Both the position numbers and the translations under genes were made by a program. From Syntrophaceae bacterium (lineage in GTDB: Bacteria > Desulfobacterota > Syntrophia > Syntrophales > Smithellaceae), in contig JANXZU010000098.1 of the NCBI GenBank assembly GCA_025355345.1, positions 960-64,959 on the forward strand: a stretch of DNA of 64,000 nucleotides, in the 5' to 3' direction. The notes under the pieces are model-generated. The model had not been told where the DNA came from. It saw nothing but the letters and a program-made list of their open reading frames with translations, and did no database searches. How positions within the stretch are numbered: the stretch's first letter is position 1; the number at the start of each line of letters is the position of its first letter. Positions 24,114 through 40,473 of the stretch are shown piece after piece.

Positions 24114-24311
24114 TCTGTCTCGCGCAAAAAAACTGGAGAATTCTTGAATTAAATGTGTTAAAAATGTGATCAGTTCCAGTTGTAACGTTGTTGTTGCTTC
24201 GCTGGATATCCACGGGCATCTGAAATGCCCTCTGTCTGCTGCGGGATAATTCGACTAACAAATATTACCGCACTATGTTTGTAATATTTGAGTCTCAATA
24301 AAGGAGGGTTT

Positions 24312-25752: not shown

Positions 25753-25972
25753 AATGAGGTTAACCTCCTACTTTTAGAAATAGTTTAGATTGGTTTTAAT
25801 CGATCTATGGACAATATTGTTTATACTTATACTTTTTTTATCAAAAATCAATATTGAATTTCGGCTGAAAAAAATTCGCCTTGAAATATTTTTCTGCTTT
25901 AATCTAGCATCGTAAAATTTTTATACCAATTTGTCAGCGAAAGGTATAATACATCAAATCACAGGAGTTAAA

Positions 25973-26386
25973 ATGAACATAATAAAAAAAATAGCGGTTT
26001 ATTTTGCCCGGAAAGAATTTTGCAGAAATGCAATATCCGAGAAGGCTGATCTGAGTGTTTTTGAGAAAAAACTTACAGCAAAAGTAATTACCGGTTTAGT
26101 TTTGATTTTTGTTAGTTATCTGATAGGTCTCCCTACTGCTGTTATTATAGGTGGAATTGCAGGAGCTAAATTTAATGCTTCAATTGCCGCTTTCATTATT
26201 ACTGTGATTTATGGTATTTCTTGGCTTATTCTTATGCTGGGAGCGTACCTTGCCGGCCCTAAATATGGAAAGGCGATAAGCCGTTGGGCAGTGCGGGTTG
26301 TTTTGGAAAAAATACTCGGGGCTGAGGCGAAAAAAATCGCGGCTTTACCGGTGCAAAATCCGCAAAGATCGGACACAAAAAAATAA
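25973..26386 (+). CDS. Small integral membrane protein (first gene of the lipid cluster?)
   Basis: ATG 25973 follows 'aggag'. There are three hydrophobic helices and no recognisable motif. Confidence 0.5.
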   Translation: MNIIKKIAVYFARKEFCRNAISEKADLSVFEKKLTAKVITGLVLIFVSYLIGLPTAVIIGGIAGAKFNASIAAFIITVIYGISWLILMLGAYLAGPKYGKAISRWAVRVVLEKILGAEAKKIAALPVQNPQRSDTKK

Positions 26387-26425
26387 GGCGTTTTTAAAAG
26401 CGCCGGATTAAAAATGAGGTGTTAA

Positions 26426-26698
26426 ATGATTCAGATTGAAGAATTAGTTAGTGAACTTAAAGTTAATATTATTAAAACACTGGGTTTGATAGACGTTACT
26501 CCTGAAGACATTAAAGATGATGCTGTGCTTGTTGGCGGCGATACGGGAATTGATTCTATTGATGTGCTGGAACTGGTAATGATGATTGAAAAAGATTATG
26601 GCGTTAAAATTGACAGCAAAGAACTTGGCGCCAAAGTATTCGCGTCAGTACGCGCGCTGGCTACTCATATTTTCAATAATCAGAGGCAGAAAGCTTAA
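26426..26698 (+). CDS. Acyl carrier protein (phosphopantetheine-binding)
   Basis: 90 aa with GIDSIDVLELV, the DS(x) attachment Ser in helix-II context. Confidence 0.8.
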   Translation: MIQIEELVSELKVNIIKTLGLIDVTPEDIKDDAVLVGGDTGIDSIDVLELVMMIEKDYGVKIDSKELGAKVFASVRALATHIFNNQRQKA

Positions 26699-26880
26699 TA
26701 CCAAGGCGCTTTCTTAGGTTAACTTTGCCGATCTCGCTTTTAGCGGGATCGGCTCATCCAATCACACTAAAGCGTAACCAGTCGGAGTCTCCTTCTTGGA
26801 GAATTGTTATCCATTGGAATCGAAATGGTATAAGGTGGCAAACAAAAACAATCCTATAGAATTTTGAGCATTTTACCCCT

Positions 26881-28233
26881 ATGACGAAAGTATTGCTAAT
26901 CTCTGCAAACACTTTGAGAATGCCCTATCCGGTATATCCACTGGGGCTTGACTATGTTGCCGGTTCTCTGGATTCCCGTTATTCGACAAAAATAGTAGAT
27001 TTGAACACTGTTTTAGATCTGGATGAAGTGGGTGCGATTATTCGAGAATTTTCTCCCGATTTTGTCGGGATATCAATTCGAAATGTAGATAATACCGATA
27101 CAATGAATAGTCGCGCTTTTTTATCCGATTATCAAAACCTTGTACGCGAGATTCGGAAAAATTCACAAGCGAAATTGATATTAGGCGGTAGCGGTTATAC
27201 AGTTTTTCCTGTTGAATTTTTACAGGCGCTGGATGCCGATTACGGCATTGCCGGCGAAGGAGAAAGATTATCTTTACTTCTGGATGCATTGGAAAAGAAT
27301 GAAAGTGTGCAATTCATGCCCGGAGTTGTGACTAAGGAGACTGTAACTGTTTCTTATGATCCATGGGGCGGTGACGTCCAAAGACGTTTTGATCCCGAAG
27401 GTGTAAACACCGGTTTTTATCTTTCCTACGGGGGGATGCTTAACCTGCAAACAAAAAGGGGCTGTCCCTTCCGCTGCAGCTATTGCACCTATCCGCATAT
27501 TGAAGGCAGCCGGATGCGGTTTTTCCCCGCCCGCGAAATAGCCCAAAAAGCCCGCGAATTGCAGGATGCCGGAGCTAAATATATATTCATCACCGATTCC
27601 GCCTTTAATGCCAGTTATGACCACAGCAGGCTTGTCGCCGAGGCTTTTATTGCAGCTCACGTATCGATTCCTTGGGGTGGATTCTTTGCTCCCACCATAT
27701 CTCCCGCAGATTATTATAAGTTACTGGCTGATGCGGGGCTCACGCATGTGGAATTTGGGACGGAATCTTTATCCGATACAATGCTCACAAATTTGCAAAA
27801 ACCTTTTGCCTCCCGAGATGTTTTTGCCGCTCATAAGCAAGCGCTGAAAGCTAATCTGCATATTGCCCATTATTTCCTTTTAGGTGGTCCCGGTGAAAAC
27901 GCTCAGACACTTCAGGACACACTAAATGGAGTGGATACACTGGAAAAATCAGTTTTTTTCTTTTTTTGCGGTATTCGGATTTACCCTCATACCGCCCTAT
28001 ATGATGTAGCCTTGAAGGAAGGCCAAATTTCGCACTCTCAAAGTCTTTTGCATCCTGTATTTTACTCCTCCCCGCATATATCTGGCAAAGAAATTATGCA
28101 AGCAGTAGAGAATCATGCCAATGGCCGTTTTAATTGGATAGTTGGTTCCGGTGAAAATAAAGCAACCCGTGTTTTGCCCAAGCTCTATGAACGGGGATTT
28201 ACAGGGCCACTTTGGGAACATTTGATTCAGTGA
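26881..28233 (+). CDS. B12-binding-domain radical SAM protein
   Basis: N-terminal Rossmann-like B12-binding segment (KVLLISAN..PLGLDYVAGSL..KIVDLN) and the CxxxCxxC motif RGCPFRCSYCTYP. Confidence 0.8.
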   Translation: MTKVLLISANTLRMPYPVYPLGLDYVAGSLDSRYSTKIVDLNTVLDLDEVGAIIREFSPDFVGISIRNVDNTDTMNSRAFLSDYQNLVREIRKNSQAKLILGGSGYTVFPVEFLQALDADYGIAGEGERLSLLLDALEKNESVQFMPGVVTKETVTVSYDPWGGDVQRRFDPEGVNTGFYLSYGGMLNLQTKRGCPFRCSYCTYPHIEGSRMRFFPAREIAQKARELQDAGAKYIFITDSAFNASYDHSRLVAEAFIAAHVSIPWGGFFAPTISPADYYKLLADAGLTHVEFGTESLSDTMLTNLQKPFASRDVFAAHKQALKANLHIAHYFLLGGPGENAQTLQDTLNGVDTLEKSVFFFFCGIRIYPHTALYDVALKEGQISHSQSLLHPVFYSSPHISGKEIMQAVENHANGRFNWIVGSGENKATRVLPKLYERGFTGPLWEHLIQ

Positions 28234-28243
28234 GGGCGACTTG

Positions 28244-29053
28244 ATGAAACGAAAGCTGCTTTCTAGCAATCCGGCTGTAGTTACGGGAATAGTTCTCCTG
28301 GCTGTCAGCGCCCTGGTATTTGCGGTTAATCCTCTATTTGCTGCGGCTATTGCCCTTTTTTATATTCTTCTTTGCGTCAGCGCATGTTTTTTGCCGCAAA
28401 CCAATTTTCTCCTGCCCGAGATCAGCCGTGGTCAAACCGGCAAAAATCTGGTTGCGCTCACTTTTGACGATGGCCCCGCCGAACCGACAACAAGGCAAAT
28501 ACTTGATTTGCTCGACAAGTATTCAGTTAAGGCGACTTTCTTTGTTTCCGGTATCAATGCCTTGCGCTATCCCGAAATCATCAAAGAAATAGTTTCCCGT
28601 GGCCATAGTATTGGTAATCATTCGTTTAGCCATAATCCTTTTTTGATGCTGACAAACTTTAATAATCTGTATCGGGAGATTTCTATGGCTCAGGAAATAT
28701 TACGGAAAATGGGTATAAACACAAAGGCATTTCGGCCGCCGGTAGGTATTGTGAACCCCAAGCTGTCCCCAATTCTGGATAAATTAGGGATGTTTTGTCT
28801 GACCTTTAGTTGTCGCGCTTTTGATGCCGGTAATTTCCATGTAAAAGAAATTGGTTCTAAAATCCTGAGAAAAGTTAAGGCCGATGATATTATCCTGCTT
28901 CACGATGTGCCGCCCCGCAGGAAAGAAGACAGTGCGTTTTTTTTGCCGGAGATTGAGCGGCTGCTTAACGGAATTATTGCTAAAGGTTTATGTATTGTTC
29001 CTCTTGCCGATTTGATCAATCAAGAAGTCATGAACAGGAGTGATAATCTTTAG
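28244..29053 (+). CDS. Membrane-anchored polysaccharide deacetylase (NodB homology domain)
   Basis: Two N-terminal TM helices plus NodB motifs TFDDGP and GHSIGNHSFSH. Confidence 0.8.
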   Translation: MKRKLLSSNPAVVTGIVLLAVSALVFAVNPLFAAAIALFYILLCVSACFLPQTNFLLPEISRGQTGKNLVALTFDDGPAEPTTRQILDLLDKYSVKATFFVSGINALRYPEIIKEIVSRGHSIGNHSFSHNPFLMLTNFNNLYREISMAQEILRKMGINTKAFRPPVGIVNPKLSPILDKLGMFCLTFSCRAFDAGNFHVKEIGSKILRKVKADDIILLHDVPPRRKEDSAFFLPEIERLLNGIIAKGLCIVPLADLINQEVMNRSDNL

Positions 29054-29087
29054 GAAATAAATAATCATTGACCTAATAAAATATTTT

Positions 29088-29116
29088 TTGATTGAAAAAA
29101 TAATCAGTGATATATA
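29088..29116 (+). promoter_or_regulatory. Possible internal promoter of the lipid cluster
   Basis: TTGATT (29088-29093), 17 nt, TATATA (29111-29116) in an AT-rich 102-nt gap. The spacer contains the palindrome TGATT-n8-AATCA. Confidence 0.4.
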
Positions 29117-29155
29117 ATAAAATTACTGATATGCATTTTAATTGGCAAGCGAACA

Positions 29156-29545
29156 GTGAAGGGATATGATTTGAAAGATTCAAGGCAATTGCTCAGGGAG
29201 GTTAATTCAATTACTCCCAATAAGATCGAAGCGTTAGCTTATGTGCCAATTGATTCGTCCTGGTTTCTGGGTCATTTTCCCAATGAGCCGATTCTTCCGG
29301 GGATAGCTTTAGTTGATATGGTCCAGCAGGCCATTATTCAGGATGCCGTTGCCAAGGGCGAAGAAATTACTTTTTTAGCTCTAAAAAGAGTTAGGTTTAC
29401 CCAACCTGTTCGTCCCGGTGAATCTTTAAAGATGACTGTAACTCGGGGGGAAGCAGGCGAAGAAACCATATTTACCTTTAAAGTAGCTCATGAGCAAAAT
29501 ATTGTCTGCAGCGGGCAAATCGTCGCGAAGAAGAAAAAAAGATAA
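29156..29545 (+). CDS. FabZ/FabA-like hot-dog 3-hydroxyacyl-ACP dehydratase
   Basis: FLGHFPNEPILPGIALVDM matches the HFPxxPxxPG catalytic-His motif. GTG start. Confidence 0.75.
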   Translation: MKGYDLKDSRQLLREVNSITPNKIEALAYVPIDSSWFLGHFPNEPILPGIALVDMVQQAIIQDAVAKGEEITFLALKRVRFTQPVRPGESLKMTVTRGEAGEETIFTFKVAHEQNIVCSGQIVAKKKKR

Positions 29546-29568
29546 ACAAATATATAAGGAGGGAAGAG

Positions 29569-29841
29569 ATGCCTGAAACAAATGATATACAGGGCATTAT
29601 AAGGAAGGTAGCTGAAATTATCATTGGAGAACTGAAGCTGGAAGATGTTACAGTAGATACGTTCAGTCCGGAGATGGATTTGGTTGATGAATTGGGTATT
29701 GACAGTATGGATTTGGCGACAATCGCTCTGGTTCTGCAAGATGAATACAAAATTGTGATTGACGAAGACGATTATCCGAAATTAAAATCCATTCGCATGA
29801 TAGCTGAATATATTTCCGAAAAACTTACCGCGAAGGGTTAA
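29569..29841 (+). CDS. Acyl carrier protein (second copy)
   Basis: 90 aa with LGIDSMDLATI attachment-site context. RBS 'aaggaggg' lies upstream. Confidence 0.8.
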   Translation: MPETNDIQGIIRKVAEIIIGELKLEDVTVDTFSPEMDLVDELGIDSMDLATIALVLQDEYKIVIDEDDYPKLKSIRMIAEYISEKLTAKG

Positions 29842-29861
29842 TTTACAGAAGATAATTGTCT

Positions 29862-30935
29862 ATGACCATTAACAATAAAACAGTTTCTGAAACAGCCAAA
29901 CCAAAATTCGCCGAACTTTTAGCAAATCCTGCGGTGAGAGCTCGCTGGGAAAAAGTAAGAAAATATTTTTTTCTGCGGGAATCCACGTACGACATGAGTA
30001 ACCGTTGCAATATACGATGTGACGGCTGCTATTACTACGAAGGAGAAAAGCAGTTTGCGCCGGAGAATTTGGACGCACAGGCATGGCGCAAGCTTATGCA
30101 GGATGAAAAGGCCCGCGGCATTACTTACGTGGTATTGGCCGGCGCTGAACCGTCACTGGTACCGGAGCTCCTCGATGTTTGCTATTCGGAAATGCCGCTG
30201 GGAAGTATTGCCACCAATGGATTTAAAAAAATACCGGAATCTGTCGGTTACAAGATTCATATTTCAGTTTGGGGAAACGATGAAACCAGCCTGCGCGTGA
30301 GAAAAGCCAGGAATCTTTTGTCAAAACAAATCGAGAACTATCAGAATGATCCACGTGCTGTCTTTGTTTACACATTTACACGGGAAAATATTGAAGAAGC
30401 ATATGAAGTTGCCGGAAAGCTCGGTGCGAGCAGTTGCAAACTGACTTTTAACGTATTTTCTTCTCCGGTAGGTTATACCGGTCCTTTGCGTCATAACGAA
30501 GAGTCGCTTCAAAAAGTTCAGTCAACAATGATCGCGCTACTTAAAAAATATCCGCAAAATGTTATTTTTTCCGTTTACAATGCTGTAGCCCATGCGCACA
30601 AGGGATCCTTGCATGATCTCTACAGTTGTTCTTATCCCCGGCAAAACAGTTCACAGGACATCGGGTTAGGAAGATCATTCCGGCAATATCGAACGGACTT
30701 AAACTGGGACAGGTCGGTTGCCTGCTGCGTGCCGGATACGGACTGTGCTGATTGCCGGCATTATGCTGCTGGTTCGGCAGTTGTTACCGCCCGACTTTAC
30801 CGTCATGTAAGTAATCTGGCCACATTTCAATCATGGCTTGATTATGTAGATACTTATCTGGCGGTTTGGGTAATGGGTTATGAAAAAGGGGATAATCTTT
30901 GCGCGGAATTAATCAGTCCGCCGCAATCGGTTTAA
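29862..30935 (+). CDS. Radical SAM protein with C-terminal auxiliary Cys motif (paralogue A)
   Basis: YDMSNRCNIRCDGCYY (CxxxCxxC) and C-terminal ACCVPDTDCADCRHY (CC-x5-C-x2-C). Confidence 0.8.
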   Translation: MTINNKTVSETAKPKFAELLANPAVRARWEKVRKYFFLRESTYDMSNRCNIRCDGCYYYEGEKQFAPENLDAQAWRKLMQDEKARGITYVVLAGAEPSLVPELLDVCYSEMPLGSIATNGFKKIPESVGYKIHISVWGNDETSLRVRKARNLLSKQIENYQNDPRAVFVYTFTRENIEEAYEVAGKLGASSCKLTFNVFSSPVGYTGPLRHNEESLQKVQSTMIALLKKYPQNVIFSVYNAVAHAHKGSLHDLYSCSYPRQNSSQDIGLGRSFRQYRTDLNWDRSVACCVPDTDCADCRHYAAGSAVVTARLYRHVSNLATFQSWLDYVDTYLAVWVMGYEKGDNLCAELISPPQSV

Positions 30936-30983
30936 AGTAAAATTTACATGCTGCTTTGTCAGCCGTAAAAAAGGGTAAGGTAA

Positions 30984-31979
30984 ATGAAGACAATAAGTTC
31001 ACTTTTGGACAAGCAGTGGCATGATCGCTATAAACGAATATCTACTCTTAATATTCGGAGTTCTATATACGATGTAACCAACCGCTGCAATTTACGTTGC
31101 AAAGGATGTTTTTTCTTTTCTTCCGGGGAACATCAAGTGGAAGAGGAAACCGATATAAAAAAATGGGAAGACTTTATTGATGCGGAAAAAGAACGCGGAG
31201 TAAATCTGGCGATTTTGATCGGCGGTGAACCAACTTTGTGCATGGATCGAGTGGAATCCTTCTACAGGCGATTGCCCAGTTACTGTGCCACCAACGGTTT
31301 GATTAAACTTGACCGGAAAAGGTTTCCTGATTTGATGGTTGGCATTTCCCTATGGGGCGGCGGTGAAGATGAAAAGATTCTCCGTGGCCGTGATACTTTT
31401 GCCATTTCCAGTAAAAATTATGCCGGAGATCCATACACCTATTATCTTTATACCATAACGCCAAAGCAGGTAGGCAAGATTGAACCGGTAATAAAGCAAA
31501 TCGTGGATGTCGGATTAAAGGTGCACCTCCAACTTTTATCAAACGATGAAAGCGTTGATGGATTTTCCTGGCAGCCAAGTGAGCTCAAAGATTTACGCTC
31601 TGAGATGGACGGAGTGCTCGATAGGTACCCGCGAACTGTGATATCCAGTAAATATTATCACGAGGTAATCACTACGGGGATGATGATGGGGCGGAATTTT
31701 TGTTGGAACGAATGCCCGTCGGTTACCGAATCGCTTGATAATAGAAAGCCACAGCCTAGGCGTTTAATTCGCTTTGCCCGCTGGGCAGCCGATTTAAAAA
31801 CGGTGCATCGCTGCTGTACATCAGCAACGCGCGATTGTTCCACCTGTAAAGATGGCGCGGCACATATGAGCTGGATTATGGTCAACAAACGTGAACATAT
31901 GAAATCAACAAAAGATCTACAAAACTGGATCGAAGTTTATGAAATGTTTGCAAAGCTATACAGCTTTATTCCCTGGTAA
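30984..31979 (+). CDS. Radical SAM protein with C-terminal auxiliary Cys motif (paralogue B)
   Basis: YDVTNRCNLRCKGCFF (CxxxCxxC) and C-terminal RCCTSATRDCSTCKDG (CC-x6-C-x2-C). It is colinear with paralogue A. Confidence 0.8.
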   Translation: MKTISSLLDKQWHDRYKRISTLNIRSSIYDVTNRCNLRCKGCFFFSSGEHQVEEETDIKKWEDFIDAEKERGVNLAILIGGEPTLCMDRVESFYRRLPSYCATNGLIKLDRKRFPDLMVGISLWGGGEDEKILRGRDTFAISSKNYAGDPYTYYLYTITPKQVGKIEPVIKQIVDVGLKVHLQLLSNDESVDGFSWQPSELKDLRSEMDGVLDRYPRTVISSKYYHEVITTGMMMGRNFCWNECPSVTESLDNRKPQPRRLIRFARWAADLKTVHRCCTSATRDCSTCKDGAAHMSWIMVNKREHMKSTKDLQNWIEVYEMFAKLYSFIPW

Positions 31980-32050
31980 CATCTAATTGCCTTTATGATC
32001 GGATCCCTCTCCCTGAGCATGAATGGGTTTTTGACTTGAGGATTGTAGTA

Positions 32051-33301: not shown

Positions 33302-33319
33302 AGAATATATAGTGAAATT

Positions 33320-34585: not shown

Positions 34586-34586
34586 A

Positions 34587-35066
34587 ATGAAACCAAAGCC
34601 ATTTAAACCGGAGATATTTAATGACGATGAGCGTTATATCCGCGACGAGACCACGGGGCTTATATGGCATCGTACCTGCCACCGGACGCTATATGCCGAT
34701 ACGGATCGCTCCGAGGTTGTTTATCATTCCAATTATCTGCGCTATTTTGAGTTCGGCAGGACGTCTCTTATGCGTGACGCCGCATATACTTACAAGGAGA
34801 TAGAGGAAAGCGGCTATGTTTATCCGATAATAGATTTAGGCATAAATTTCTATCAGCCGCTTTATTATGATGATCTGATGTATATTCATAGCCGACCTGT
34901 TAATCTGGAGCGGGTGCGCCTGCAGTTTGATTATTTAATAACACATGCGGCAAATGGTCATATCGTTTGCATCGGGTTTACGAAGCATTGCGCTTTGAAT
35001 CAGTCTGGTAGGCCTGTTGCAGTTGACCCCAAAACGGTTCATCTATGGAAATCATTTCCGGCGTGA
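34587..35066 (+). CDS. Hot-dog (4HBT/YbgC-like) acyl thioesterase
   Basis: YADTDRSEVVYHSNYLRYFE catalytic-Asp region. The start lies 1 nt after the preceding stop. Confidence 0.7.
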   Translation: MKPKPFKPEIFNDDERYIRDETTGLIWHRTCHRTLYADTDRSEVVYHSNYLRYFEFGRTSLMRDAAYTYKEIEESGYVYPIIDLGINFYQPLYYDDLMYIHSRPVNLERVRLQFDYLITHAANGHIVCIGFTKHCALNQSGRPVAVDPKTVHLWKSFPA

Positions 35067-35905
35067 AGAAAAAAGAACGCTATCCTCTGGAAATTAAGAC
35101 GTATTCTTATCTGCAGGATCATTGCTTTGAAGGGCAGGCAATCTTTCCGGCTGTGGAAGCTCTTATTATACTGGCGGGTGTGGCTGCGGCAAACTTTTCG
35201 CAAATAAATGTTTGCCTGCAGAGGCAAGCACGTTTCCCCCGCTTTTTATCGATTGATCCACAGGAGCAAGTGAAAAAAGTATTTGCCGATATCGGAGAGA
35301 TAACAGAAGGTTCGCTCAGTGTCGCAATTGCCACCAAGGCCAAGAGCGGAACAATTAGTAGGATGATGGAACACGCTTATGTGGAATTTGCGGATTCGCA
35401 AGCGCCTGGGTTCTTGCCAGCGCCATCAGCGGATTTTATGCATTTGGGCGGTAAGCGCTTCACTTTATCCGCGGCGGCGATTTACCGTGAGCTTGTGCCT
35501 TTCGGTAAGGCCTATCAAAATATTGTTGGTGAACTTTCTTTATCGCCTCAAGGTGCAATTGCTAATCTTTATGGTGGAGAAGGTGAAGCAAATGACGATC
35601 TTATTGGTTCACCCTTTCCGTTGGATGCAGCTCTGCATGCTGCCTGCTCGTGGGGACAGCGCTACGCCGGTATTGTTGCTTTTCCGGTGGGTTTTACAGA
35701 AAGAATAATTTACCGAAAAACAAAAAAGAGAAGTAATTATATCGGGAGAATTATCCCGGTTAATATCAGCCGCGTGCCACTTATATTTGATGCGTCTATT
35801 TATGATTTAGATGGTATATTATATGAAAGCATAAGTGGTATTAAAATGCGTGATGTTTCGCAGGGGCGACTGCGGCCTCCGGATTGGATAAAGGCAGATT
35901 TGTAA
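35045..35905 (+). CDS. PKS-type double hot-dog dehydratase domain protein
   Basis: HCFEGQAIFP matches the PKS DH motif HxxxGxxxxP, and the later LDAALHAA resembles DxxxQ/H. The start is ATG 35045, or GTG 35063 overlapping the upstream stop. Confidence 0.65.
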   Translation: MEIISGVKKKERYPLEIKTYSYLQDHCFEGQAIFPAVEALIILAGVAAANFSQINVCLQRQARFPRFLSIDPQEQVKKVFADIGEITEGSLSVAIATKAKSGTISRMMEHAYVEFADSQAPGFLPAPSADFMHLGGKRFTLSAAAIYRELVPFGKAYQNIVGELSLSPQGAIANLYGGEGEANDDLIGSPFPLDAALHAACSWGQRYAGIVAFPVGFTERIIYRKTKKRSNYIGRIIPVNISRVPLIFDASIYDLDGILYESISGIKMRDVSQGRLRPPDWIKADL

Positions 35906-35962
35906 AAACTATTGATGGTCTCATCCACGTTGTCTATGATAAAGTAAAAGGAGAAATATTTG

Positions 35963-38047
35963 ATGGAAAAGTTTTTTTATCCCCGCAGTTTAGTGGTATT
36001 CGGGGCTTCGATTACAAAAATGAATCTGGGACAGATCGTCCTGCTCAATAACAAGCAAAACGGTTACGAAGGCGCACTTTACGGTGTTGGTAGCAAAGCG
36101 GGAGTTATAGATGGTATACCAGTTTATACTGACATTGCCGATCTTCCGGAAACCCCTGATGTCGCCATCTTTCTAACGCCGGCCAAAACCATCCCCGCTC
36201 TTATGGAAGCCTGCGGCCAAAAGGGAATTGAGCGTATCGTCATTGAATCAGGCGGCTTCAGCGAATATTCGCGTGGCGATTACTCTCTAGAAAATGAAGT
36301 TCTAAAAGTTGCTAAAAAATATGGGATGAAGGTAATCGGCCCCAACTGTGTCGGGACCATAAATTTTGATATCAAAATGATGATGCCGTTTACTTTTTTT
36401 AAGGATATACCCACAGGAGGCCGTGTAGGGCTTATTGCCCAGAGTGGTGGTATTGGCGCGACTTACCTGCGCGCCATGACCGGTTACGGAATCAAGCCCG
36501 GAAAATTCGTGGCAACAGGCAACAAACTTCAACTGGACGAAGTTGATTTCCTGGAATATTTTGTTCATGATGACAAGACCGAAATAATCACTGTCTATCT
36601 TGAAGGTTTCAAAAGAGGAAGAGCCTTTTTTGATCTGGCGATGCAATCGGAAAAACCCATAATCGTACAAAAATCCAACCGCAGTCCCTTAAGCGCAAAA
36701 ATTGCCCAATCCCACACCACAGCACTATCGAACAGCGATGAAGTGGTCGATGGTTGTTTTCGTCAGGCAGGGGTTATCCGGATTGAAGATGAGTTGGATT
36801 TAATTAACGCCACCAGGGTTGTCCGTCTCCCGCTGATGAAGGGAAGGCGCGTAGCTGTTCTTTCACGCTCCGGTGGGCACGCGGTTCTTTCGGCTGATGC
36901 CTGTGCCAGATACGGTTTTGATATCATTCCCTTTCCTCCATCATTCATCGAAAAGCTTAAAACAATTTACAATACCCGTGTCATTGCCCACCAGAACCCT
37001 CTGGATCTGGGAGAAATTTTTGACTACACAATATTCATCGCTATTCTCGAAGAAACTCTGAAGTTGGATACTTATGACGGCGTTTTGTTCAACCATCTTT
37101 ATGCAGCCAATTTTGAAGCTGAAATGTCGCGGACTTTCCTTTCTGGTGTGGAGAAGCTCGTTGCCAAGTATCAAAAGCCGGTTTGTCTGGCCATGATTTC
37201 CTCCCGCGAGGAAATTCTGGATATTTCGAAAAATCACACGTACCCAACTTTCACCTCGCCGCTTGAGGCCGCTGCCGCTCTTCATGTTTCTTTGACTTAT
37301 TATGAACGCAAAAAAGCGCGCGATGCCAGAGGCAAGATACCATCTTATAAGATTGACCTGCCCGCAATTTCGATTATCAGAGAGCGCTGCCTGCTGGACG
37401 CACGTATACCACTTACGGATGATGCCCTGAACATTTGCAGTGCTGCAGGATTGCAACCGGTAAAAAGCATGGTCATTAAAAATGCTAAAACAGTTGGACG
37501 CATCCAACTTAAATACCCTGTGGCCTTAAAACTAGTTTCTCGCGATGCATCGCATAAATCCGACGTCGGTGGCGTGAGAATAAATATTCTAAACAGGGGA
37601 TCTCTGATTGCGTCCATTGCCGAAATGGAAAAAACAATAAAGCTTCTGAAGCCGCGTCCCGTAATCGACGGTTTTATGGTTCAGGAGATGGCGCCTTCGG
37701 GCATCGAATGTTTTGTGGGTGGTCGCAGGGATAAGGCTTTCGGTCCCATCATTATAGTTGGCTTGGGAGGAATCTTTATTGAGATATTCAAAGACACAAC
37801 AATTGCCTTGGCTCCGGTTACAAAAAAGGAAGCATCTGATATGCTCAAAGAACTTCAGGCCTATCCGCTTCTTCAGGGAGTTCGAGGCAAAGGTCGGGCC
37901 GATGTAAAAGCTTTGGTCGACGTTATCTGCCGTGTATCAACCCTTTTGACAAATTGTCCCGAGATTAGCGAACTGGATCTCAATCCTGTGATTGTCCATC
38001 CTGATGGGCAGGGCGTCTCAATTGTTGACGCGCGGATATTTTTCTAA
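35963..38047 (+). CDS. ADP-forming acyl-CoA synthetase family protein (CoA-binding + succinyl-CoA-ligase-like + ATP-grasp)
   Basis: N-terminus PRSLVVFGAS (CoA-binding Rossmann), GPNCVG, and a C-terminal ATP-grasp-like half, in a 695-aa ORF. ATG lies 8 nt after 'aaggag'. Confidence 0.75.
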   Translation: MEKFFYPRSLVVFGASITKMNLGQIVLLNNKQNGYEGALYGVGSKAGVIDGIPVYTDIADLPETPDVAIFLTPAKTIPALMEACGQKGIERIVIESGGFSEYSRGDYSLENEVLKVAKKYGMKVIGPNCVGTINFDIKMMMPFTFFKDIPTGGRVGLIAQSGGIGATYLRAMTGYGIKPGKFVATGNKLQLDEVDFLEYFVHDDKTEIITVYLEGFKRGRAFFDLAMQSEKPIIVQKSNRSPLSAKIAQSHTTALSNSDEVVDGCFRQAGVIRIEDELDLINATRVVRLPLMKGRRVAVLSRSGGHAVLSADACARYGFDIIPFPPSFIEKLKTIYNTRVIAHQNPLDLGEIFDYTIFIAILEETLKLDTYDGVLFNHLYAANFEAEMSRTFLSGVEKLVAKYQKPVCLAMISSREEILDISKNHTYPTFTSPLEAAAALHVSLTYYERKKARDARGKIPSYKIDLPAISIIRERCLLDARIPLTDDALNICSAAGLQPVKSMVIKNAKTVGRIQLKYPVALKLVSRDASHKSDVGGVRINILNRGSLIASIAEMEKTIKLLKPRPVIDGFMVQEMAPSGIECFVGGRRDKAFGPIIIVGLGGIFIEIFKDTTIALAPVTKKEASDMLKELQAYPLLQGVRGKGRADVKALVDVICRVSTLLTNCPEISELDLNPVIVHPDGQGVSIVDARIFF

Positions 38048-38070
38048 AGCAAGATATTGGGATATAACTT

Positions 38071-39255
38071 ATGAAAATATTCTGTCCTAAAATTATTATT
38101 TTTGCCGTATTGCCGATTCTACTTTCCTGCGCAATCGTGACGGATTTAGGAGCAGCCACATTACAAACCAATCGATATCATTCCTATCTCAAACAGGGAA
38201 TCGATAAGGCTTTCAACATGGAAACTGCAGTTGCTAATAGTCTGCTGAAAAAAGCGGTGGAGCTGCAACCTGACAATCCGATGGGCTATGCCTTCTTGGT
38301 CATGCTGCACTTATTTTCTTATGAGATGAGTTATGATCTTGAGGGGAGAAAGAGAGATCAGGAAGCAATCACGCGCTATGTCAGTGAAACAATCTTACGG
38401 GGAGAAAAAAGGCTGGAAATCAATCCTAAAGACTCTGATGCATACATGTCTATGGCGCTGGCTAAAGTTGCCAAAGTGCACTGGGGTATTCGTGAAAAAC
38501 GATACCTGATGATGGCGCAGGAAACATCAAATATCTGGTATTATCTGGAAAAGGCAAGTGCGGCCGAGCCAAATAATTTTGATATCTATTTTTTGATGGG
38601 GCTTCTGCATTACCATCTTGATTATCTGCCCGGATTAGCCCGCGTTGCATCCTCTGTATTTATTACCTCGGGTGACAGCCAACAAGGGCTGAGGGAAATT
38701 GAACTGGCGGCGCAAAAGGGTGATCTATTGAAAACTATCGCGCAAACTGAGCTCCAATCAGTTTATTTGATTTTTGAAAAACAGCCTCAGCGTGCGTTGC
38801 CGGTTATTCGCAAATTACGCGAAAAGTATCCCAACAACTATAATTTTGTATTTGCCGAGGCGAATGTTTTTGCCGAACTGCAACGATTCGACGAAGCTTT
38901 TGCTTTAGCCCAGGAAATAAAAAATAATGTTGAAACTGCCAAACCTCCCTATATTATACAGCTTCAGCCGAGATATAATCAGTTAATGGGCAGAATATTT
39001 TTTTCCCGTGGTGACTACAACAAGGCAACGGAGTATTTTCAGAGGGCTCTGCAAGATATGGCTTTTTATAATACGCGGGTTCGTGTCTGGTCGCTAGTGA
39101 GGTTGGGCATGATTCAGGATGCCCGTAAAGACAGAGCCAGGGCACAGGACTATTATTCGCAGGCGCTGGAAATAGAAAATGGTGAAGGCACAGCAAAGAT
39201 TGAGGCAAAAAAATATCTTCAGACGCCTTATGTGCCGACAAAAAATATTAATTAG
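38071..39255 (+). CDS. TPR-repeat exported protein
   Basis: N-terminal hydrophobic signal (IIIFAVLPILLSCA) followed by repeated TPR-like helices (..YNKATEYFQRAL.., ..RAQDYYSQALEI..). Confidence 0.65.
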   Translation: MKIFCPKIIIFAVLPILLSCAIVTDLGAATLQTNRYHSYLKQGIDKAFNMETAVANSLLKKAVELQPDNPMGYAFLVMLHLFSYEMSYDLEGRKRDQEAITRYVSETILRGEKRLEINPKDSDAYMSMALAKVAKVHWGIREKRYLMMAQETSNIWYYLEKASAAEPNNFDIYFLMGLLHYHLDYLPGLARVASSVFITSGDSQQGLREIELAAQKGDLLKTIAQTELQSVYLIFEKQPQRALPVIRKLREKYPNNYNFVFAEANVFAELQRFDEAFALAQEIKNNVETAKPPYIIQLQPRYNQLMGRIFFSRGDYNKATEYFQRALQDMAFYNTRVRVWSLVRLGMIQDARKDRARAQDYYSQALEIENGEGTAKIEAKKYLQTPYVPTKNIN

Positions 39256-39281
39256 TTAACGTTCAACAAAGGGGGTAAACC

Positions 39282-40265
39282 ATGAAAAGATTTTACTTCA
39301 TCTCAGTATTGTTACTAATGATCGGAATTACGGGTTGCGCGGCGCCAAAAGTAAACTTATTCAGCACTGTGCCTGAACCGCTTAAGGAATTCACACTGGA
39401 AGGCACAGGTTCTGATAAAGTCTTGTTGATCTCGGTAACCGGCACAATCTCCGACTCTCCCAAAAAAGATTTGATCAGCTCATCACCTGGTGTTGTGGAA
39501 GAAGTGGTGGCACAAATCAATAAAGCTAAAAGAGATAAGCAAATCAAAGCGATTTTGTTCAAAATAAATTCACCAGGAGGAACCATTACCGCAAGTGATA
39601 TCCTGTACCATGAAATTTCCGCGTACAAAGCGAAAGCGGGTGTTAAAATAGTGGTTTCGATGATGGATGTCGCTGCATCCGGCGCCTATTACATATCTCT
39701 TCCCGCGGATTTGATCATGGCTCATCCTACAACAATCACGGGTTCGGTAGGCGTTATTTCTCTGCAACCTAAAGTTGCCGGCTTAATGGAAAAAATCGGT
39801 CTTGGTGTCACCGTGCAAAAGTTTGGCAAATATAAAGACATGGGGTCACCATTCCGTGAGAGCAATACCGAAGAGCAAAAACTGTTGCAAAAGACAGTGA
39901 ACGATTTTGGCGATAGATTCATTAGTTTAGTAAAAAAACATCGCAAGCTCACTCCGCAGGCGATTGCGGAAGTCTCTACAGCACGAGTGTTCCTGGCTGA
40001 TGAGGCACTTACGCTTGGTCTTGTAGACAAAATCGGCTATATAAGTGAAGCGTTCAAGGAAATAAAAATAATTGCCGGAATATCTGAAGATGCCAAAGTT
40101 GTAGTTTACCGACGGATGGAATTTCCCGAAGATACTTATTATAACAATGCCGAAGCCATATCAGGAAAGTTGAACATTACGGGAATCAACATTGAGCTCC
40201 CGGAGGCCTTCAGGCTGAAAGCCGGTTTTTATTATCTCTGGCCAGGGGCAATTGGTATGGATTAA
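39282..40265 (+). CDS. sppA: Signal peptide peptidase SppA (36K type), lipoprotein
   Basis: Lipobox GITGC, INSPGGT, and the Ser-nucleophile context MMDVAASGAYYIS. Confidence 0.8.
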   Translation: MKRFYFISVLLLMIGITGCAAPKVNLFSTVPEPLKEFTLEGTGSDKVLLISVTGTISDSPKKDLISSSPGVVEEVVAQINKAKRDKQIKAILFKINSPGGTITASDILYHEISAYKAKAGVKIVVSMMDVAASGAYYISLPADLIMAHPTTITGSVGVISLQPKVAGLMEKIGLGVTVQKFGKYKDMGSPFRESNTEEQKLLQKTVNDFGDRFISLVKKHRKLTPQAIAEVSTARVFLADEALTLGLVDKIGYISEAFKEIKIIAGISEDAKVVVYRRMEFPEDTYYNNAEAISGKLNITGINIELPEAFRLKAGFYYLWPGAIGMD

Positions 40266-40473
40266 AGAGTGTCGATTTATTGAGAGGCGTTGTAGAAATA
40301 TAAAATGTGTTGTCAAAACTGTAATTTAGTCAAATCCAAGCTTCAGCAATGGATTGGACACAAGCTTGTTGGCCGAATTAATGACATTGGATGAAAATGA
40401 GTGAAACGAAACTTGAAGTGTAAATGGAATTGATCCCCGAAGTGTGAGTAGTGGGATTAGGGGGCATAAGGGC

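What the first reader, a model, noticed from the sequence alone, without database searches (positions are those of the whole stretch)
25973..40265. FAS/PKS-like lipid gene cluster with three radical SAM enzymes and no KR/ER/AT: product not deducible
Fourteen consecutive same-strand genes make up the cluster. In order they are: a membrane protein, ACP, a B12-binding radical SAM, a NodB-type deacetylase with TM anchor, a FabZ-like dehydratase, a second ACP, two paralogous radical SAM enzymes, two ketosynthases, a hot-dog thioesterase, a PKS-type dehydratase, an ADP-forming acyl-CoA synthetase, a TPR protein and the SppA lipoprotein. Most junctions are under 50 nt or overlap, but a 182-nt gap at 26699-26880 and a 102-nt AT-rich gap at 29054-29155 (with a promoter-like element) may split it into more than one unit. 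Dedicated ACPs and KSs combined with radical SAM enzymes suggest chemistry on an unactivated acyl chain, such as C-methylation, cyclisation or C-C coupling. This goes beyond ordinary fatty-acid synthesis. As I recall, clusters combining FabF-like KS, ACP, FabZ and B12/radical SAM genes were proposed as candidates for anammox ladderane lipid synthesis (Rattray et al. 2009), with homologues noted in non-anammox bacteria whose products remain unknown. Aryl-polyene-type clusters share the 2xACP, 2xKS, DH and TE core but normally lack radical SAM genes. I cannot assign the product. Whether the TPR and SppA genes belong functionally is uncertain.
Basis: partly seen in the sequence, partly recalled or inferred. 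Interest (0 to 1): 0.75.

Follow-up and report, generated by a model that had tools for sequence, protein, structure and literature searches.

The report
Radical-SAM fatty-acid gene cluster in Smithellaceae
This is a conserved 12-gene operon block of an uncultured syntrophic sediment bacterium that pairs a private fatty-acid-type assembly line with three radical SAM enzymes; its probable product is a modified membrane lipid that nobody has identified.

Summary
The window carries 15 (not 14) consecutive same-strand genes with the stated domains, and none is a KR, ER or AT.

Comparison with 80 Smithellaceae/Syntrophales genomes redraws the borders. The conserved unit is 25973-35905, from the small membrane protein to the PKS-type DH. 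ACS, TPR and SppA are not conserved neighbours. In 38 of 39 relatives a divergent PlsY (glycerol-3-phosphate acyltransferase) paralogue follows the DH; the window lacks it.

- The B12-radical SAM passes NCBIfam TIGR04072 ("rSAM_ladder_B12").
- Both ketosynthases keep Cys-His-His and resemble FabF, so they are not the KS/CLF pair of anammox Cluster I.
- No phytoene-desaturase-like gene is present.
- ACP1 and the small dehydratase are ApeE- and ApeI-like.
- The two paralogous radical SAMs belong to a rare SPASM/twitch-type family that sits beside, or is fused to, carrier-protein machinery.
- An orthologous Smithella cluster is covered by digester metatranscriptome contigs.

Best reading: a two-module type II FAS-like pathway that makes a radical-SAM-modified acyl chain for glycerolipids. 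The exact chemistry is not deducible. It is a compact non-anammox variant of the known but uncharacterised "ladderane-type" clusters.

The parts
25973..26386 (+). g01: small membrane protein of 137 aa with two hydrophobic helices and no known family. First gene of module 1.
   Evidence: There is a GGAG ribosome-binding site before the ATG at 25973. No Pfam or NCBIfam hit. It is conserved at this position in 73 of 80 relatives at 39-68% identity and is called as 137 aa in L092.
26426..26698 (+). g02: ACP1, an ApeE-like (starter-type) acyl carrier protein.
   Evidence: PP-binding 37.1 bits. NF006617 scores 64.3 bits against a cut-off of 70. The best PDB match is 9LS6, ApeE of A. baumannii. Median identity to relatives is 78%.
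26881..28233 (+). g03: B12-binding radical SAM enzyme, family TIGR04072 ('lipid biosynthesis B12-binding/radical SAM protein').
   Evidence: TIGR04072 scores 392.3 bits against a cut-off of 360. It carries PF02310 and PF04055. The CPFRCSYC cluster motif is invariant. More than 5,600 homologues were found, and NCBI names the Smithella ones by this family.
28244..29053 (+). g04: membrane-anchored CE4/NodB-type deacetylase. The N-terminal helical hairpin probably places the catalytic domain in the cytoplasm.
   Evidence: Polysacc_deac_1 scores 111.5 bits. The motifs TFDDG, HSFSH, RPPVG and LLHD are all present. It lies 7-10 nt after g03. Median identity to relatives is 62%.
29054..29170 (.). Intergenic gap between module 1 and module 2. 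In relatives it is a hot spot for insertions.
   Evidence: Relatives carry 1.0-3.6 kb inserts exactly here. These include a minus-strand SDR in Smithella, a radical SAM, an HNH gene and Abi-like genes.
29171..29545 (+). g05: small hot-dog dehydratase, ApeI/FabZ-like. The ORF is open from the GTG at 29156.
   Evidence: FabA scores 42.1 bits and ApeI-like 35.6 bits against a cut-off of 28.5. The best PDB matches are 3esi and 6qsr (ApeI-type). amxFabZ 7qv0 is weaker. It contains HFPxxPxxPG.
29569..29841 (+). g06: ACP2, a FAS-type acyl carrier protein.
   Evidence: PP-binding 38.3 bits. The best PDB matches are ordinary FAS ACPs. Median identity to relatives is 80%.
29862..30935 (+). g07: radical SAM 'a', SPASM/twitch-type, paralogue of g08.
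   Evidence: It has CNIRCDGC plus a C-terminal CCx6Cx2C motif and is 25% identical to g08. An orthologue at 46% identity sits in the same a-b-ACP order in L090/L091.
30984..31979 (+). g08: radical SAM 'b', SPASM/twitch-type.
   Evidence: It has CNLRCKGC, and the invariant cysteines are C35, C39, C42, C277, C285 and C288. The AF2 model has pLDDT 85.4. The nearest folds are SkfB, anSME, BlsE, SuiB and MoaA. The family has only 554 hits among 1.84 billion representatives.
32051..33301 (+). g09: KS1, a FabF-like ketosynthase with an intact Cys-His-His triad.
33320..34585 (+). g10: KS2, a FabF-like ketosynthase with an intact Cys-His-His triad. It is the most conserved gene of the cluster (median 86% identity).
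34587..35066 (+). g11: hot-dog thioesterase of the YbgC/4HBT family.
   Evidence: TIGR00051 scores 78.3 bits against a cut-off of 68.7. PDB matches are YbgC and 4-hydroxybenzoyl-CoA thioesterases.
35063..35905 (+). g12: stand-alone PKS-type double hot-dog dehydratase. It overlaps g11 by 4 nt and is the last conserved gene present in the window.
   Evidence: The motifs HCFEGQAIFP and LDAALH are present. Orthologues carry PF14765/PF21089 and are named 'polyketide synthase dehydratase domain-containing protein'. All top Foldseek hits are PKS DH domains, though the model has pLDDT of only 54.5.
35960..38047 (+). ADP-forming acyl-CoA synthetase. It is adjacent to the cluster but is not a conserved member. 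It occupies the place where relatives have the PlsY paralogue.
   Evidence: Domains. It is absent downstream of the DH in all relatives examined. The junction is spanned by independently assembled contigs.
38071..40265 (+). TPR protein (38071-39255) and SppA-type S49 peptidase (39282-40265). Neither is a conserved neighbour, so both are probably unrelated to the cluster.
   Evidence: Domains. Neither is found in any of the 80 related loci.

Best explanation
The unit is 25973-35905. It is a vertically inherited pathway of the family Smithellaceae (Syntrophales), and an orthologous copy is transcribed. It builds a special fatty-acyl chain on its own carrier proteins, and three radical SAM enzymes modify that chain. 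In relatives a private PlsY-type acyltransferase then places the chain on glycerol-3-phosphate, so the end product is a specialised membrane glycerolipid.

I read the unit as two modules.

- Module 1 holds the small membrane protein, the ApeE-like ACP1, the TIGR04072 B12-radical SAM and the membrane-anchored CE4 hydrolase. It prepares or modifies a unit on ACP1. The most likely reaction is cobalamin-dependent C-methylation of an unactivated carbon.
- Module 2 holds the ApeI-like dehydratase, the FAS-type ACP2, the radical SAM pair a/b, two catalytically intact FabF-like ketosynthases, a YbgC-type thioesterase and a PKS-type dehydratase. It elongates and dehydrates the chain with malonyl units.

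The housekeeping FASII enzymes FabD, FabG and possibly FabI are borrowed in trans. The SPASM/twitch-type pair abstracts hydrogen from the ACP-bound chain to make a C-C bond or a double bond. The thioesterase releases or proof-reads the product.

Shown: the gene content, the conservation, the family memberships, the intact catalytic motifs, the PlsY linkage in relatives, and RNA coverage of an orthologous cluster.

Inferred: the division of labour between the modules, the use of FASII enzymes in trans, the type of radical chemistry, and the final lipid.
For: Conservation:
- 42 of 80 Smithellaceae loci carry all 12 genes, 41 of them collinear. Among the 49 loci long enough to judge, 40 carry all 12.
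- The identity of the B12-radical SAM falls from 90% to 63% in step with taxonomy.
- The flanks are not conserved.

Lipid destination:
- A PF02660 glycerol-3-phosphate acyltransferase gene directly follows the DH in 38 of 39 loci. It scores 121.8 bits on Pfam but only 99.4 on TIGR00023 (cut-off 137.2), so it is a paralogue.

B12-radical SAM:
- It passes TIGR04072.
- Its next-best characterised relatives include several methyltransferases, namely TsrM-type, PhpK, the MCR Gln C-methyltransferase and HpnR, together with BzaD.

Carrier proteins:
- ACP1 is ApeE-like and ACP2 is FAS-like, the starter-plus-elongation ACP layout of aryl-polyene systems.

Ketosynthases:
- Both keep Cys-His-His and are closest to FabF.

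Radical SAM pair:
- It has a CxxxCxxC motif plus invariant C-terminal cysteines and a SPASM/twitch-like fold.
- In every context read, a member of this family sits next to an ACP gene: L090/L091, L087, L083 and L085.
- One relative is fused to a TubC docking domain and a thioesterase, and another to an AMP-binding domain.

Expression and coupling:
- Metatranscriptome contigs from four digester runs cover the orthologous Smithella cluster from the start of g01 to just past the DH and vanish beyond it.
- Short or overlapping junctions suggest translational coupling.
Against: - No product is known for any member of this cluster family.
- The window itself lacks the PlsY paralogue.
- No KR, ER, AT, PlsX or PPTase is encoded, so the pathway cannot run without borrowed enzymes, and that borrowing is assumed.
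- Without an enoyl reductase the chain could stay polyenic, as in aryl polyenes.
- B12-radical SAMs also catalyse ring contractions and cyclisations. HpnJ and BchE are among the weaker hits.
- The role of the CE4 hydrolase is unexplained.
- Three of the 49 loci have module 1 without module 2 within 10 kb (L031, L060, L079). The modules can therefore be separated.
- The RNA evidence comes from assembled contigs of an orthologue, not from the window organism, and contig depth is a poor measure of expression.
Confidence: 0.5

Rival explanations
1. The cluster is an aryl-polyene-like type II PKS. With no enoyl reductase, it makes a conjugated polyene acyl chain, which the radical SAM enzymes then tailor. 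The product would be a pigment-type or protective envelope lipid, not a bulk phospholipid.
For: - ACP1's best solved relative is ApeE.
- g05 passes the ApeI-like Pfam model, and its best PDB hits are ApeI-type proteins.
- The cluster has two ACPs, two KS, two dehydratases and a 4HBT thioesterase, but no ER.
Against: - There is no ApeH-type adenylating enzyme, KR (ApeQ), methyltransferase, LolA/MMPL export genes or LPLAT/glycosyltransferase in the conserved unit.
- Both KS have intact triads and are closer to FabF than to PKS KS/CLF pairs.
- The conserved terminal gene is a PlsY paralogue.
- Aryl-polyene clusters, as I recall them, have no radical SAM genes.
Confidence: 0.15
2. The cluster follows amino-lipid or glycolipid logic, as in Nod factor or lipid A synthesis. 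The CE4 deacetylase frees an amine on an N-acetylated head group or precursor, and that amine is then N-acylated with the special acyl chain. Alternatively, the deacetylase and the B12-radical SAM remodel a sugar head group, as HpnK and HpnJ do in hopanoid cyclitol ether synthesis.
For: - The CE4/NodB protein is intact, probably faces the cytoplasm and is tightly coupled to the B12-radical SAM.
- HpnJ is among the weaker hits of g03.
- From established knowledge, rhizobial NodF (ACP), NodE (KS) and NodB occur together.
- A g07-like radical SAM plus an ACP sits inside a glycan/sulfotransferase cluster in L087.
Against: - The conserved unit has no glycosyltransferase, N-acyltransferase or sugar-nucleotide gene.
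- The conserved acyltransferase is of the PlsY type, which acts on glycerol-3-phosphate.
Confidence: 0.12
3. The cluster synthesises ladderanes (cyclobutane lipids), as proposed for the anammox clusters.
For: The B12-radical SAM belongs to the family named after the ladderane hypothesis. By the published gene lists, the order FabZ-ACP-radical SAM-radical SAM and the ACP-plus-deacetylase pairing resemble kuste3339-3343 and kuste3350-3351.
Against: - The host is a Smithellaceae bacterium, not an anammox planctomycete.
- Ladderanes are reported only from anammox bacteria, and D. psychrophila, which has a syntenic cluster, has none.
- The hallmarks of anammox Cluster I are absent: a KS/CLF pair with a mutated triad, a phytoene-desaturase-like enzyme and an amxFabZ-type dehydratase.
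Confidence: 0.02
4. The genes do not form one system. Two unrelated operons (g01-g04 and g05-g12) merely lie side by side.
For: - The gap between them is an insertion hot spot.
- Three loci have module 1 without module 2 nearby.
- The radical SAM pair with ACP and KS genes occurs without a B12-radical SAM in L090/L091.
Against: The two blocks stay adjacent, in the same order and on the same strand, in 40 of the 49 loci long enough to judge, although the flanks are not conserved. Each block carries one ACP of a complementary type.
Confidence: 0.06

Closest known systems
Anammox 'ladderane candidate' FAS clusters of Kuenenia stuttgartiensis (Cluster I kuste3603-3608; kuste2802-2805; kuste3335-3352) and the syntenic Desulfotalea psychrophila cluster (Rattray 2009, PMC2649909; Javidpour 2016, PMC4790861)
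   Same: - Private ACPs, FabF- and FabZ-type enzymes and radical SAM enzymes lie in one cluster.
- The B12-binding radical SAM is of the TIGR04072 family.
- By the published gene lists, the order FabZ-ACP-(FabG)-radical SAM-radical SAM and an ACP next to a polysaccharide-deacetylase-like gene recur in kuste3339-3343 and kuste3350-3351.
- The product is unproven in both.
   Different: - There is no KS/CLF pair; both KS triads are intact.
- There is no phytoene-desaturase-like gene, SAM methyltransferase, phenylacetyl-CoA ligase, FabG or glycosyltransferase.
- The KS and dehydratase are no closer to amxFabF and amxFabZ than to ordinary FabF and FabZ.
- The host is not an anammox bacterium.
- Relatives carry a PlsY paralogue.
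- I could not test orthology of g07/g08 with kuste3342/3343.
Aryl polyene (APE) type II PKS clusters (ApeE/ApeF ACPs, ApeI:ApeP dehydratases, ApeK thioesterase)
   Same: - The two-ACP layout includes an ApeE-like ACP.
- There is an ApeI-like small dehydratase plus a second dehydratase, a 4HBT thioesterase and two KS genes.
- No ER is present.
   Different: - Three radical SAM genes and a CE4 hydrolase are present.
- ApeH, ApeQ (KR), the CLF, the methyltransferase, the LolA/MMPL export genes and the LPLAT/GT genes are absent.
- The KS are FabF-like.
- The terminal gene is a PlsY paralogue.
antiSMASH 'ladderane'-type BGCs reported in non-anammox MAGs (Desulfobacterota and others; Cariaco Basin study, PMC9902471)
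   Same: Clusters labelled 'ladderane' were found and expressed in Desulfobacterota MAGs, with unknown function. The present cluster is very probably of that class.
   Different: I could not run antiSMASH here, and that paper gives no gene-level anatomy. The PlsY linkage, the two-module structure and the rarity of the radical SAM pair are not described there.
Radical SAM lipid modifiers Tes/GrsAB/Mss (membrane-spanning and cyclised lipids) and Jaw5/C10P (cyclopropanation on a PKS)
   Same: Radical SAM chemistry acts on inert lipid chains. Jaw5 works on a carrier-bound polyketide.
   Different: - Only the cluster-binding core of g07/g08 matches Tes (22-31 bits against a cut-off of 450).
- Tes, Grs and Mss act on finished membrane lipids and are not clustered with ACP or KS genes.
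- Jaw5 is HemN-like, which is a different class.

Membership tests
NCBIfam TIGR04072 (rSAM_ladder_B12; lipid biosynthesis B12-binding/radical SAM protein) | Full-length HMM score above the curated cut-off | tested here: met
   g03 scores 392.3 bits against a cut-off of 360, aligned over 3-450 of the protein and 1-443 of the model.
NCBIfam TIGR04072 (rSAM_ladder_B12; lipid biosynthesis B12-binding/radical SAM protein) | N-terminal B12-binding domain, a radical SAM core with CxxxCxxC, and a setting among ACP, KS and dehydratase genes | tested here: met
   PF02310 scores 51.1 bits and PF04055 76 bits. C195, C199 and C202 are invariant. The neighbouring genes are shown.
Anammox ladderane Cluster I (kuste3603-3608 type) | A KS/CLF-like heterodimer, meaning one FabF homologue with a mutated Cys-His-His triad | tested here: not met
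   Both KS have TACATG/GACASG, NAH and GH motifs.
Anammox ladderane Cluster I (kuste3603-3608 type) | A phytoene-dehydrogenase-like flavoenzyme in the cluster | tested here: not met
   No amine-oxidase or phytoene-desaturase domain occurs in any ORF from 21.6 to 44.8 kb.
Anammox ladderane Cluster I (kuste3603-3608 type) | amxFabZ-type dehydratase and amxFabF2-type KS, i.e. specific similarity to the solved anammox proteins | tested here: not met
   g05 scores 31 bits against amxFabZ 7qv0, compared with 51 for ApeI-like 3esi and 40 for ordinary FabZ. KS2 scores 206 bits against 9s5h_B, compared with 276 for T. thermophilus FabF. I assumed 9s5h to be the amxFabF heterodimer but could not confirm this.
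Anammox ladderane Cluster I (kuste3603-3608 type) | The host is an anammox planctomycete that makes ladderanes | tested here: not met
   All 80 nearest loci are Smithella, Smithellaceae, Syntrophaceae or unclassified deltaproteobacterial MAGs.
kuste3335-3352 / D. psychrophila DP185x type cluster | Orthology of the radical SAM pair (kuste3342/3343, DP1853/DP1855), of the deacetylase-like protein (kuste3351) and of the ACPs | not testable with these tools
   Only the gene order could be compared, from published tables. No anammox-labelled protein appeared among the family members whose names I looked up.
Aryl polyene (APE) cluster | ApeE-type and ApeF-type ACPs and an ApeI-type dehydratase | tested here: met
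   ACP1's best PDB hit is ApeE 9LS6 at E 4.4e-9. PF22818 ApeI-like scores 35.6 bits against a cut-off of 28.5. ACP2 is FAS-like and not specifically ApeF-like.
Aryl polyene (APE) cluster | Aryl starter activation (ApeH), KR (ApeQ), a KS:CLF pair (ApeO:ApeC), and export and attachment genes (LolA-like, MMPL, LPLAT, GT) | tested here: not met
   None of these domains occurs in the conserved 12 genes or in the orthologous locus L092. The ACS in the window is lineage-specific.
Canonical FASII operon | fabH, fabD and fabG with acpP and fabF | tested here: not met
   No FabH, FabD or FabG domain is present. Both KS score below the fabF equivalog cut-off (320 and 376 bits against 494).
SPASM/twitch-type radical SAM enzymes (g07, g08) | CxxxCxxC plus a C-terminal cysteine motif for an auxiliary Fe-S cluster, and a fold like anSME, SkfB or MoaA | tested here: met
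   The invariant cysteines are C35, C39, C42 and C277, C285, C288. Foldseek gives probability 1.0 for SkfB, anSMEcpe, BlsE, SuiB and CteB, but TM-scores are only about 0.5. No curated SPASM model reaches its cut-off.
PlsY (acyl-phosphate:glycerol-3-phosphate acyltransferase), the gene that follows the cluster in relatives | The Pfam G3P_acyltransf domain and the equivalog score | tested here: inconclusive
   PF02660 scores 121.8 bits against a cut-off of 24.1. TIGR00023 scores only 99.4 against a cut-off of 137.2. This is a divergent paralogue whose activity is untested. It is absent from the window.

The most novel reading that the evidence does not exclude
The cluster makes a class of bacterial membrane lipid not yet described. 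Its fatty-acyl chain would be methylated and/or cyclised, cross-linked or desaturated by radical SAM enzymes while still on an acyl carrier protein. The g07/g08 pair would found a new family of ACP-dependent radical SAM enzymes, with distant relatives in Burkholderia, Streptomyces, Sorangium and Blastocatellia thiotemplate clusters. Because Smithellaceae are abundant in peat, lake sediment and digesters, such a lipid could be the source of an orphan sedimentary biomarker.
Probability: 0.3. Interest if true: 0.8.

Novelty: new variant of a known kind. Interest (0 to 1): 0.58.

Why it matters
[quoted passage not shown] Even for ladderanes no enzyme has been tied to the product. Anammox bacteria have no genetics, and their radical SAM proteins have resisted expression.

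The cluster here is a compact, family-wide relative of those clusters, and its orthologue is transcribed. It occurs in a different lineage and is linked to a glycerol-3-phosphate acyltransferase. That offers a simpler system for two questions:
- what the TIGR04072 B12-radical SAM and the paired SPASM-type radical SAMs do to an acyl chain;
- what the "ladderane-type" clusters reported from many anaerobes actually make.

If the product is a distinctive lipid, it would also be a candidate biomarker for syntrophic Smithellaceae in peat, sediments and digesters.

Tried and rejected
- **Riboswitch or other RNA in the two gaps.** Rfam found nothing at E <= 1 over 25000-41000.
- **Promoter and terminator scans.** Hit counts did not exceed those in shuffles. 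The promoter-like site at 29142-29170 abuts the probable start codon.
- **The hairpin at 26727-26753.** It is unique in the window and lies in a window-specific insertion, so it is not a conserved regulator.
- **RNA evidence for the window itself.** Only DNA metagenomes hold this sequence, so I used an orthologous Smithella locus instead.
- **Chimeric assembly at the DH/ACS junction.** Rejected: independent contigs from two runs span it.
- **Upstream ABC/FtsX/LolA-like block as an export system.** It is present in the 91%-identical relative L092 but not conserved elsewhere.
- **The minus-strand SDR in the NodB/FabZ gap as the missing KR.** It is present only in some Smithella genomes and is a generic SDR, so the question stays open.
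- **Reaching anammox and Desulfotalea homologues.** The single genome scan and the top-120 hit lists were filled by Smithellaceae. Name look-ups on 20 distant representatives gave no anammox label.
- **The g08-like subfamily at 35% identity.** It occurs in Burkholderia, Streptomyces, Tistrella, Sorangium and Blastocatellia beside a PaaA/PaaC-like protein. That is a different context of unknown function, so I used it only as evidence for carrier-protein association.
- **AF2 model of the DH.** Its confidence is low (pLDDT 54.5), so I treated the fold matches as supportive only.
- **Mss- or Tes-type tail coupling.** Only the radical SAM core matches, so I did not pursue it.

Full report
**Observation.** The region holds 15 consecutive + strand ORFs from 25931/25973 to 40265.
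- two PP-binding ACPs;
- a B12-binding plus radical SAM protein;
- a Polysacc_deac_1 (NodB/CE4) protein;
- a FabA/ApeI-like hot-dog protein;
- two weakly scoring radical SAM proteins;
- two ketosynthases;
- a YbgC/4HBT thioesterase;
- a PKS-type dehydratase;
- an ADP-forming acyl-CoA synthetase;
- a TPR protein and an SppA-type peptidase.

The first gene has no family hit and encodes a 137-aa protein with two hydrophobic helices. The CE4 protein keeps all catalytic motifs and has an N-terminal two-helix anchor.

The dehydratase scores just under the Pfam cut-offs but carries HxxxGxxxxP and DxxxH. Its orthologues carry PF14765/PF21089 and are named "polyketide synthase dehydratase domain-containing protein". 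All 50 best Foldseek matches of a low-confidence model are PKS DH domains.

The two radical SAMs are true paralogues, 25% identical with E 5e-33. No KR, ER or AT domain is present in the cluster or its flanks. Gene calls on identical or near-identical contigs suggest starts at 28244, 29171, 29862, 32051 and 35063.

**Host and borders.** A scan of one genome per GTDB species with a profile of the B12-radical SAM found 400 relatives. The best 80 are all Smithella, Smithellaceae, Syntrophaceae or unclassified deltaproteobacterial MAGs from peat, lake sediment, aquifers and digesters. The closest is a fen MAG at 90% identity. The window's own sequence occurs only in sediment metagenomes.

Mapping the window's proteins on these loci shows that g01 to g12 (membrane protein to DH) are kept in the same order and strand. 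All 12 are present in 42 of the 80 loci, 41 of them collinear, and in 40 of the 49 loci long enough to judge.

Median identities are highest for KS2 (86%), radical SAM b (83%), radical SAM a, ACP2 and TE (80% each). They are lowest for the membrane protein (47%), the DH (49%) and the small dehydratase (52%).

The upstream and downstream flanks are not conserved. ACS, TPR and SppA are found next to the cluster in none of the relatives. A gene of about 196 aa directly follows the DH in 38 of 39 loci; in the 39th one extra ORF separates them. This gene is a glycerol-3-phosphate acyltransferase of the PlsY family. It scores 121.8 bits on PF02660 but falls below the PlsY equivalog cut-off (99.4 against 137.2), so it is a divergent paralogue.

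The window has no trace of this gene. The DH-to-ACS junction is nevertheless real, because contigs assembled independently from two runs span it. The conserved unit in the window is therefore 25973-35905, and this lineage has lost or relocated the usual last gene.

**The two gaps.** The 182-nt gap between ACP1 and the B12-radical SAM is 46-83 nt in most relatives. The window carries an extra stretch of about 130 nt with a unique hairpin, absent from its four closest relatives. No Rfam family matches anywhere in the cluster.

The gap after the CE4 gene is different. In many relatives it holds 1.0-3.6 kb of inserted DNA. The inserts include a minus-strand SDR in several Smithella genomes, another radical SAM, an HNH gene and Abi-like genes. 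Three loci (L031, L060, L079) have g01-g04 (L031 also keeps g05) without the remaining module 2 genes within 10 kb. I therefore treat the cluster as two modules, g01-g04 and g05-g12, which normally travel together.

**Components.**
- *B12-radical SAM.* It passes the curated NCBIfam equivalog TIGR04072, [quoted passage not shown] (392 bits, cut-off 360). NCBI already names the Smithella orthologues this way. Its next-best characterised relatives include several methyltransferases (TsrM-type, PhpK, the MCR Gln C-methyltransferase, HpnR), together with BzaD, HpnJ, AprD4 and BchE as further or weaker hits.
- *Ketosynthases.* Both keep the Cys-His-His triad. They are closer to ordinary FabF structures than to PKS ketosynthases or to the entry I take to be the anammox FabF heterodimer.
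- *ACP1.* Its best solved relative is ApeE, the starter ACP of the aryl-polyene pathway of A. baumannii.
- *ACP2.* It resembles FAS ACPs.
- *Small dehydratase.* It passes the ApeI-like Pfam model and best matches ApeI-type structures. amxFabZ matches more weakly than ordinary FabZ.

**The radical SAM pair.** g08 belongs to a strikingly small family. Among 1.84 billion representative proteins only 554 match at E <= 1e-3 and 32 at E <= 1e-30.

Both paralogues have CxxxCxxC and a C-terminal CCx6Cx2C motif. Across 55 family members C35, C39, C42, C277, C285 and C288 are invariant. A confident AF2 model (pLDDT 85.4) is closest to SPASM/twitch enzymes such as SkfB, anSMEcpe, BlsE, SuiB, CteB and MoaA, with TM-scores near 0.5. 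That class typically performs hydrogen abstraction leading to cross-links, dehydrogenation or related reactions.

Every genomic context I could read places family members beside a carrier protein.
- An a-b pair at 46% and 34% identity, followed by an ACP and flanked by three KS, a MaoC dehydratase and a FabH, with no B12-radical SAM within 10 kb (L090/L091).
- A g07-like gene plus an ACP inside a glycan/sulfotransferase cluster (L087).
- A subfamily 35% identical to g08 in Burkholderia, Streptomyces, Tistrella, Sorangium and Blastocatellia, next to a PaaA/PaaC-like protein with AMP-binding, ACP or thioesterase genes nearby.
- One relative fused to a TubC docking domain and a thioesterase, and another to an AMP-binding domain.

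This is Rosetta-stone-type evidence that the family works on carrier-bound acyl substrates.

**Expression.** No RNA run holds the window's sequence. The orthologous cluster of a digester Smithella (L045, 70% identity for the B12-radical SAM) is present in several metatranscriptomes.

Contigs from four such runs cover it from the start of g01 to just past the DH. Single contigs bridge g01-ACP1-B12, ACP2-radical SAM a, radical SAM a-b, KS1-KS2 and KS2-TE-DH. Coverage falls to zero beyond the start of the PlsY paralogue and is low just upstream of g01. These are assembled contigs, so depth is only indicative, and some DNA carry-over cannot be excluded.

**Mechanism.** The best-supported reading is a private type II FAS-like line in two modules.
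- Module 1 (membrane protein, ApeE-like ACP1, B12-radical SAM, membrane-anchored CE4) prepares or modifies a unit on ACP1. C-methylation is the likeliest chemistry, judging by the enzyme's relatives.
- Module 2 elongates and dehydrates on ACP2 with two active FabF-like KS and two dehydratases. It borrows FabD, FabG and perhaps FabI. The SPASM/twitch pair acts on the tethered chain, and the thioesterase releases or edits the product.
- In relatives the PlsY paralogue points to glycerol-3-phosphate as the acceptor, so the end product would be a membrane glycerolipid.

The gene content, conservation, motif integrity, family memberships and RNA coverage are shown. The order of steps, the borrowing of FASII enzymes, the type of radical reaction and the final lipid are inferred.

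The rivals are:
- an aryl-polyene-like polyene lipid;
- an amino- or glycolipid route in which the CE4 enzyme frees an amine;
- ladderane synthesis;
- two unrelated operons lying side by side.

The first two cannot be excluded. The last two are unlikely for the reasons given in the Rival explanations section.

**Comparison with what is known.** The closest known systems are the anammox "ladderane candidate" clusters and their deltaproteobacterial counterparts (Rattray 2009). By the published gene lists they share the FabZ-ACP-radical SAM-radical SAM order and an ACP next to a deacetylase-like gene.

Anammox Cluster I, the one now being studied structurally, is defined by a KS/CLF heterodimer, a phytoene-desaturase-like enzyme, amxFabZ and amxACP. 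The present cluster fails those tests and is not a member of that type.

It shares the ACP/DH/TE core with aryl-polyene clusters but lacks their starter activation, KR, CLF and export genes. antiSMASH-labelled "ladderane" clusters have been reported and found expressed in Desulfobacterota MAGs, with unknown function. I found no paper that describes the Smithellaceae cluster or assigns it a product.

**Verdict.** It is a compact non-anammox variant of a cluster family that is known but uncharacterised. Four things are new here:
- the corrected borders;
- the PlsY linkage;
- the two-module anatomy with an ApeE-like starter ACP;
- the recognition that the paired radical SAMs form a rare family associated with carrier proteins.

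The product remains unknown. Interest is moderate to high because the cluster offers a simpler handle on a long-standing question, namely how radical SAM enzymes modify fatty-acyl chains and what "ladderane-type" clusters make. The existence of such clusters outside anammox bacteria is not in itself a surprise.

Noticed in passing
window 26705-26845 (hairpin 26727-26753): A stretch of about 130 nt between ACP1 and the B12-radical SAM is absent from the four closest relatives. It contains a perfect 8-bp-stem hairpin (GCCGATC...GATCGGC) that occurs only once in the window. Its origin is unknown; it could be a small insertion or a MITE remnant.
   Followed up: partly
L083 10001-11167 (Burkholderia ambifaria), L085 5793-6905; proteins P0131, P0308, P0349, P0380, P0401: A subfamily 35% identical to g08 occurs in cultured aerobes (Burkholderia ambifaria and stagnalis, Streptomyces, Tistrella, Sorangium) and in Blastocatellia. 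In the two contexts read it directly follows a PaaA/PaaC-like ferritin-type gene, with AMP-binding, ACP or thioesterase genes nearby. In B. ambifaria it lies next to an AHL synthase and an isonitrile-lipopeptide-like gene set. I do not know of a function for it.
   Followed up: partly
protein P0133 (724 aa, Logan contig) and P0160 (562 aa): These are natural fusions of a g08-like radical SAM. P0133 carries an N-terminal TubC docking domain and a type II thioesterase. P0160 carries a C-terminal AMP-binding fragment.
   Followed up: partly
L024 12314-13174 (-), L026 12367-13224 (-): Several Smithella genomes carry a 285-aa classical SDR on the opposite strand, exactly in the gap between the CE4 gene and the small dehydratase. 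It could be the missing ketoreductase or an unrelated insertion.
   Followed up: partly
L087 8824-11255: A g07-like radical SAM (39% identity), preceded by an unannotated 391-aa gene and followed by an ACP, lies inside a glycan cluster with sulfotransferases, GT47/GT61-like glycosyltransferases and an epimerase.
   Followed up: no
L031 11332-13403: One Smithella MAG shows a shortened arrangement of CE4, small dehydratase and PlsY paralogue, without ACP2, the radical SAM pair, the KS genes, TE or DH. The locus contains 121 masked bases, so an assembly or masking artefact is not excluded.
   Followed up: no
window 21622-24113: This is a KefF-like flavodoxin-fold protein followed, with a 4-nt overlap, by a KefC-type Na/H-exchanger plus TrkA-N protein. 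It looks like a glutathione-gated K+ efflux pair and is conserved only in the closest relatives (L003, L092).
   Followed up: no
window 24288-24683 and 24781-25752 (-): A small protein with cysteine-rich repeats (Cys_rich_FGFR) and a PETase/dienelactone-hydrolase-like esterase lie just upstream of the cluster on the opposite strand. The esterase is kept in L003 and L092 only.
   Followed up: no
L092 3384-8673 (-): In the 91%-identical relative a block of ABC ATPase, FtsX permease, alpha/beta hydrolase, TP_0789/LolA-like protein and an unannotated 448-aa protein sits between the esterase and the cluster. It is absent from the window and from the other relatives.
   Followed up: yes
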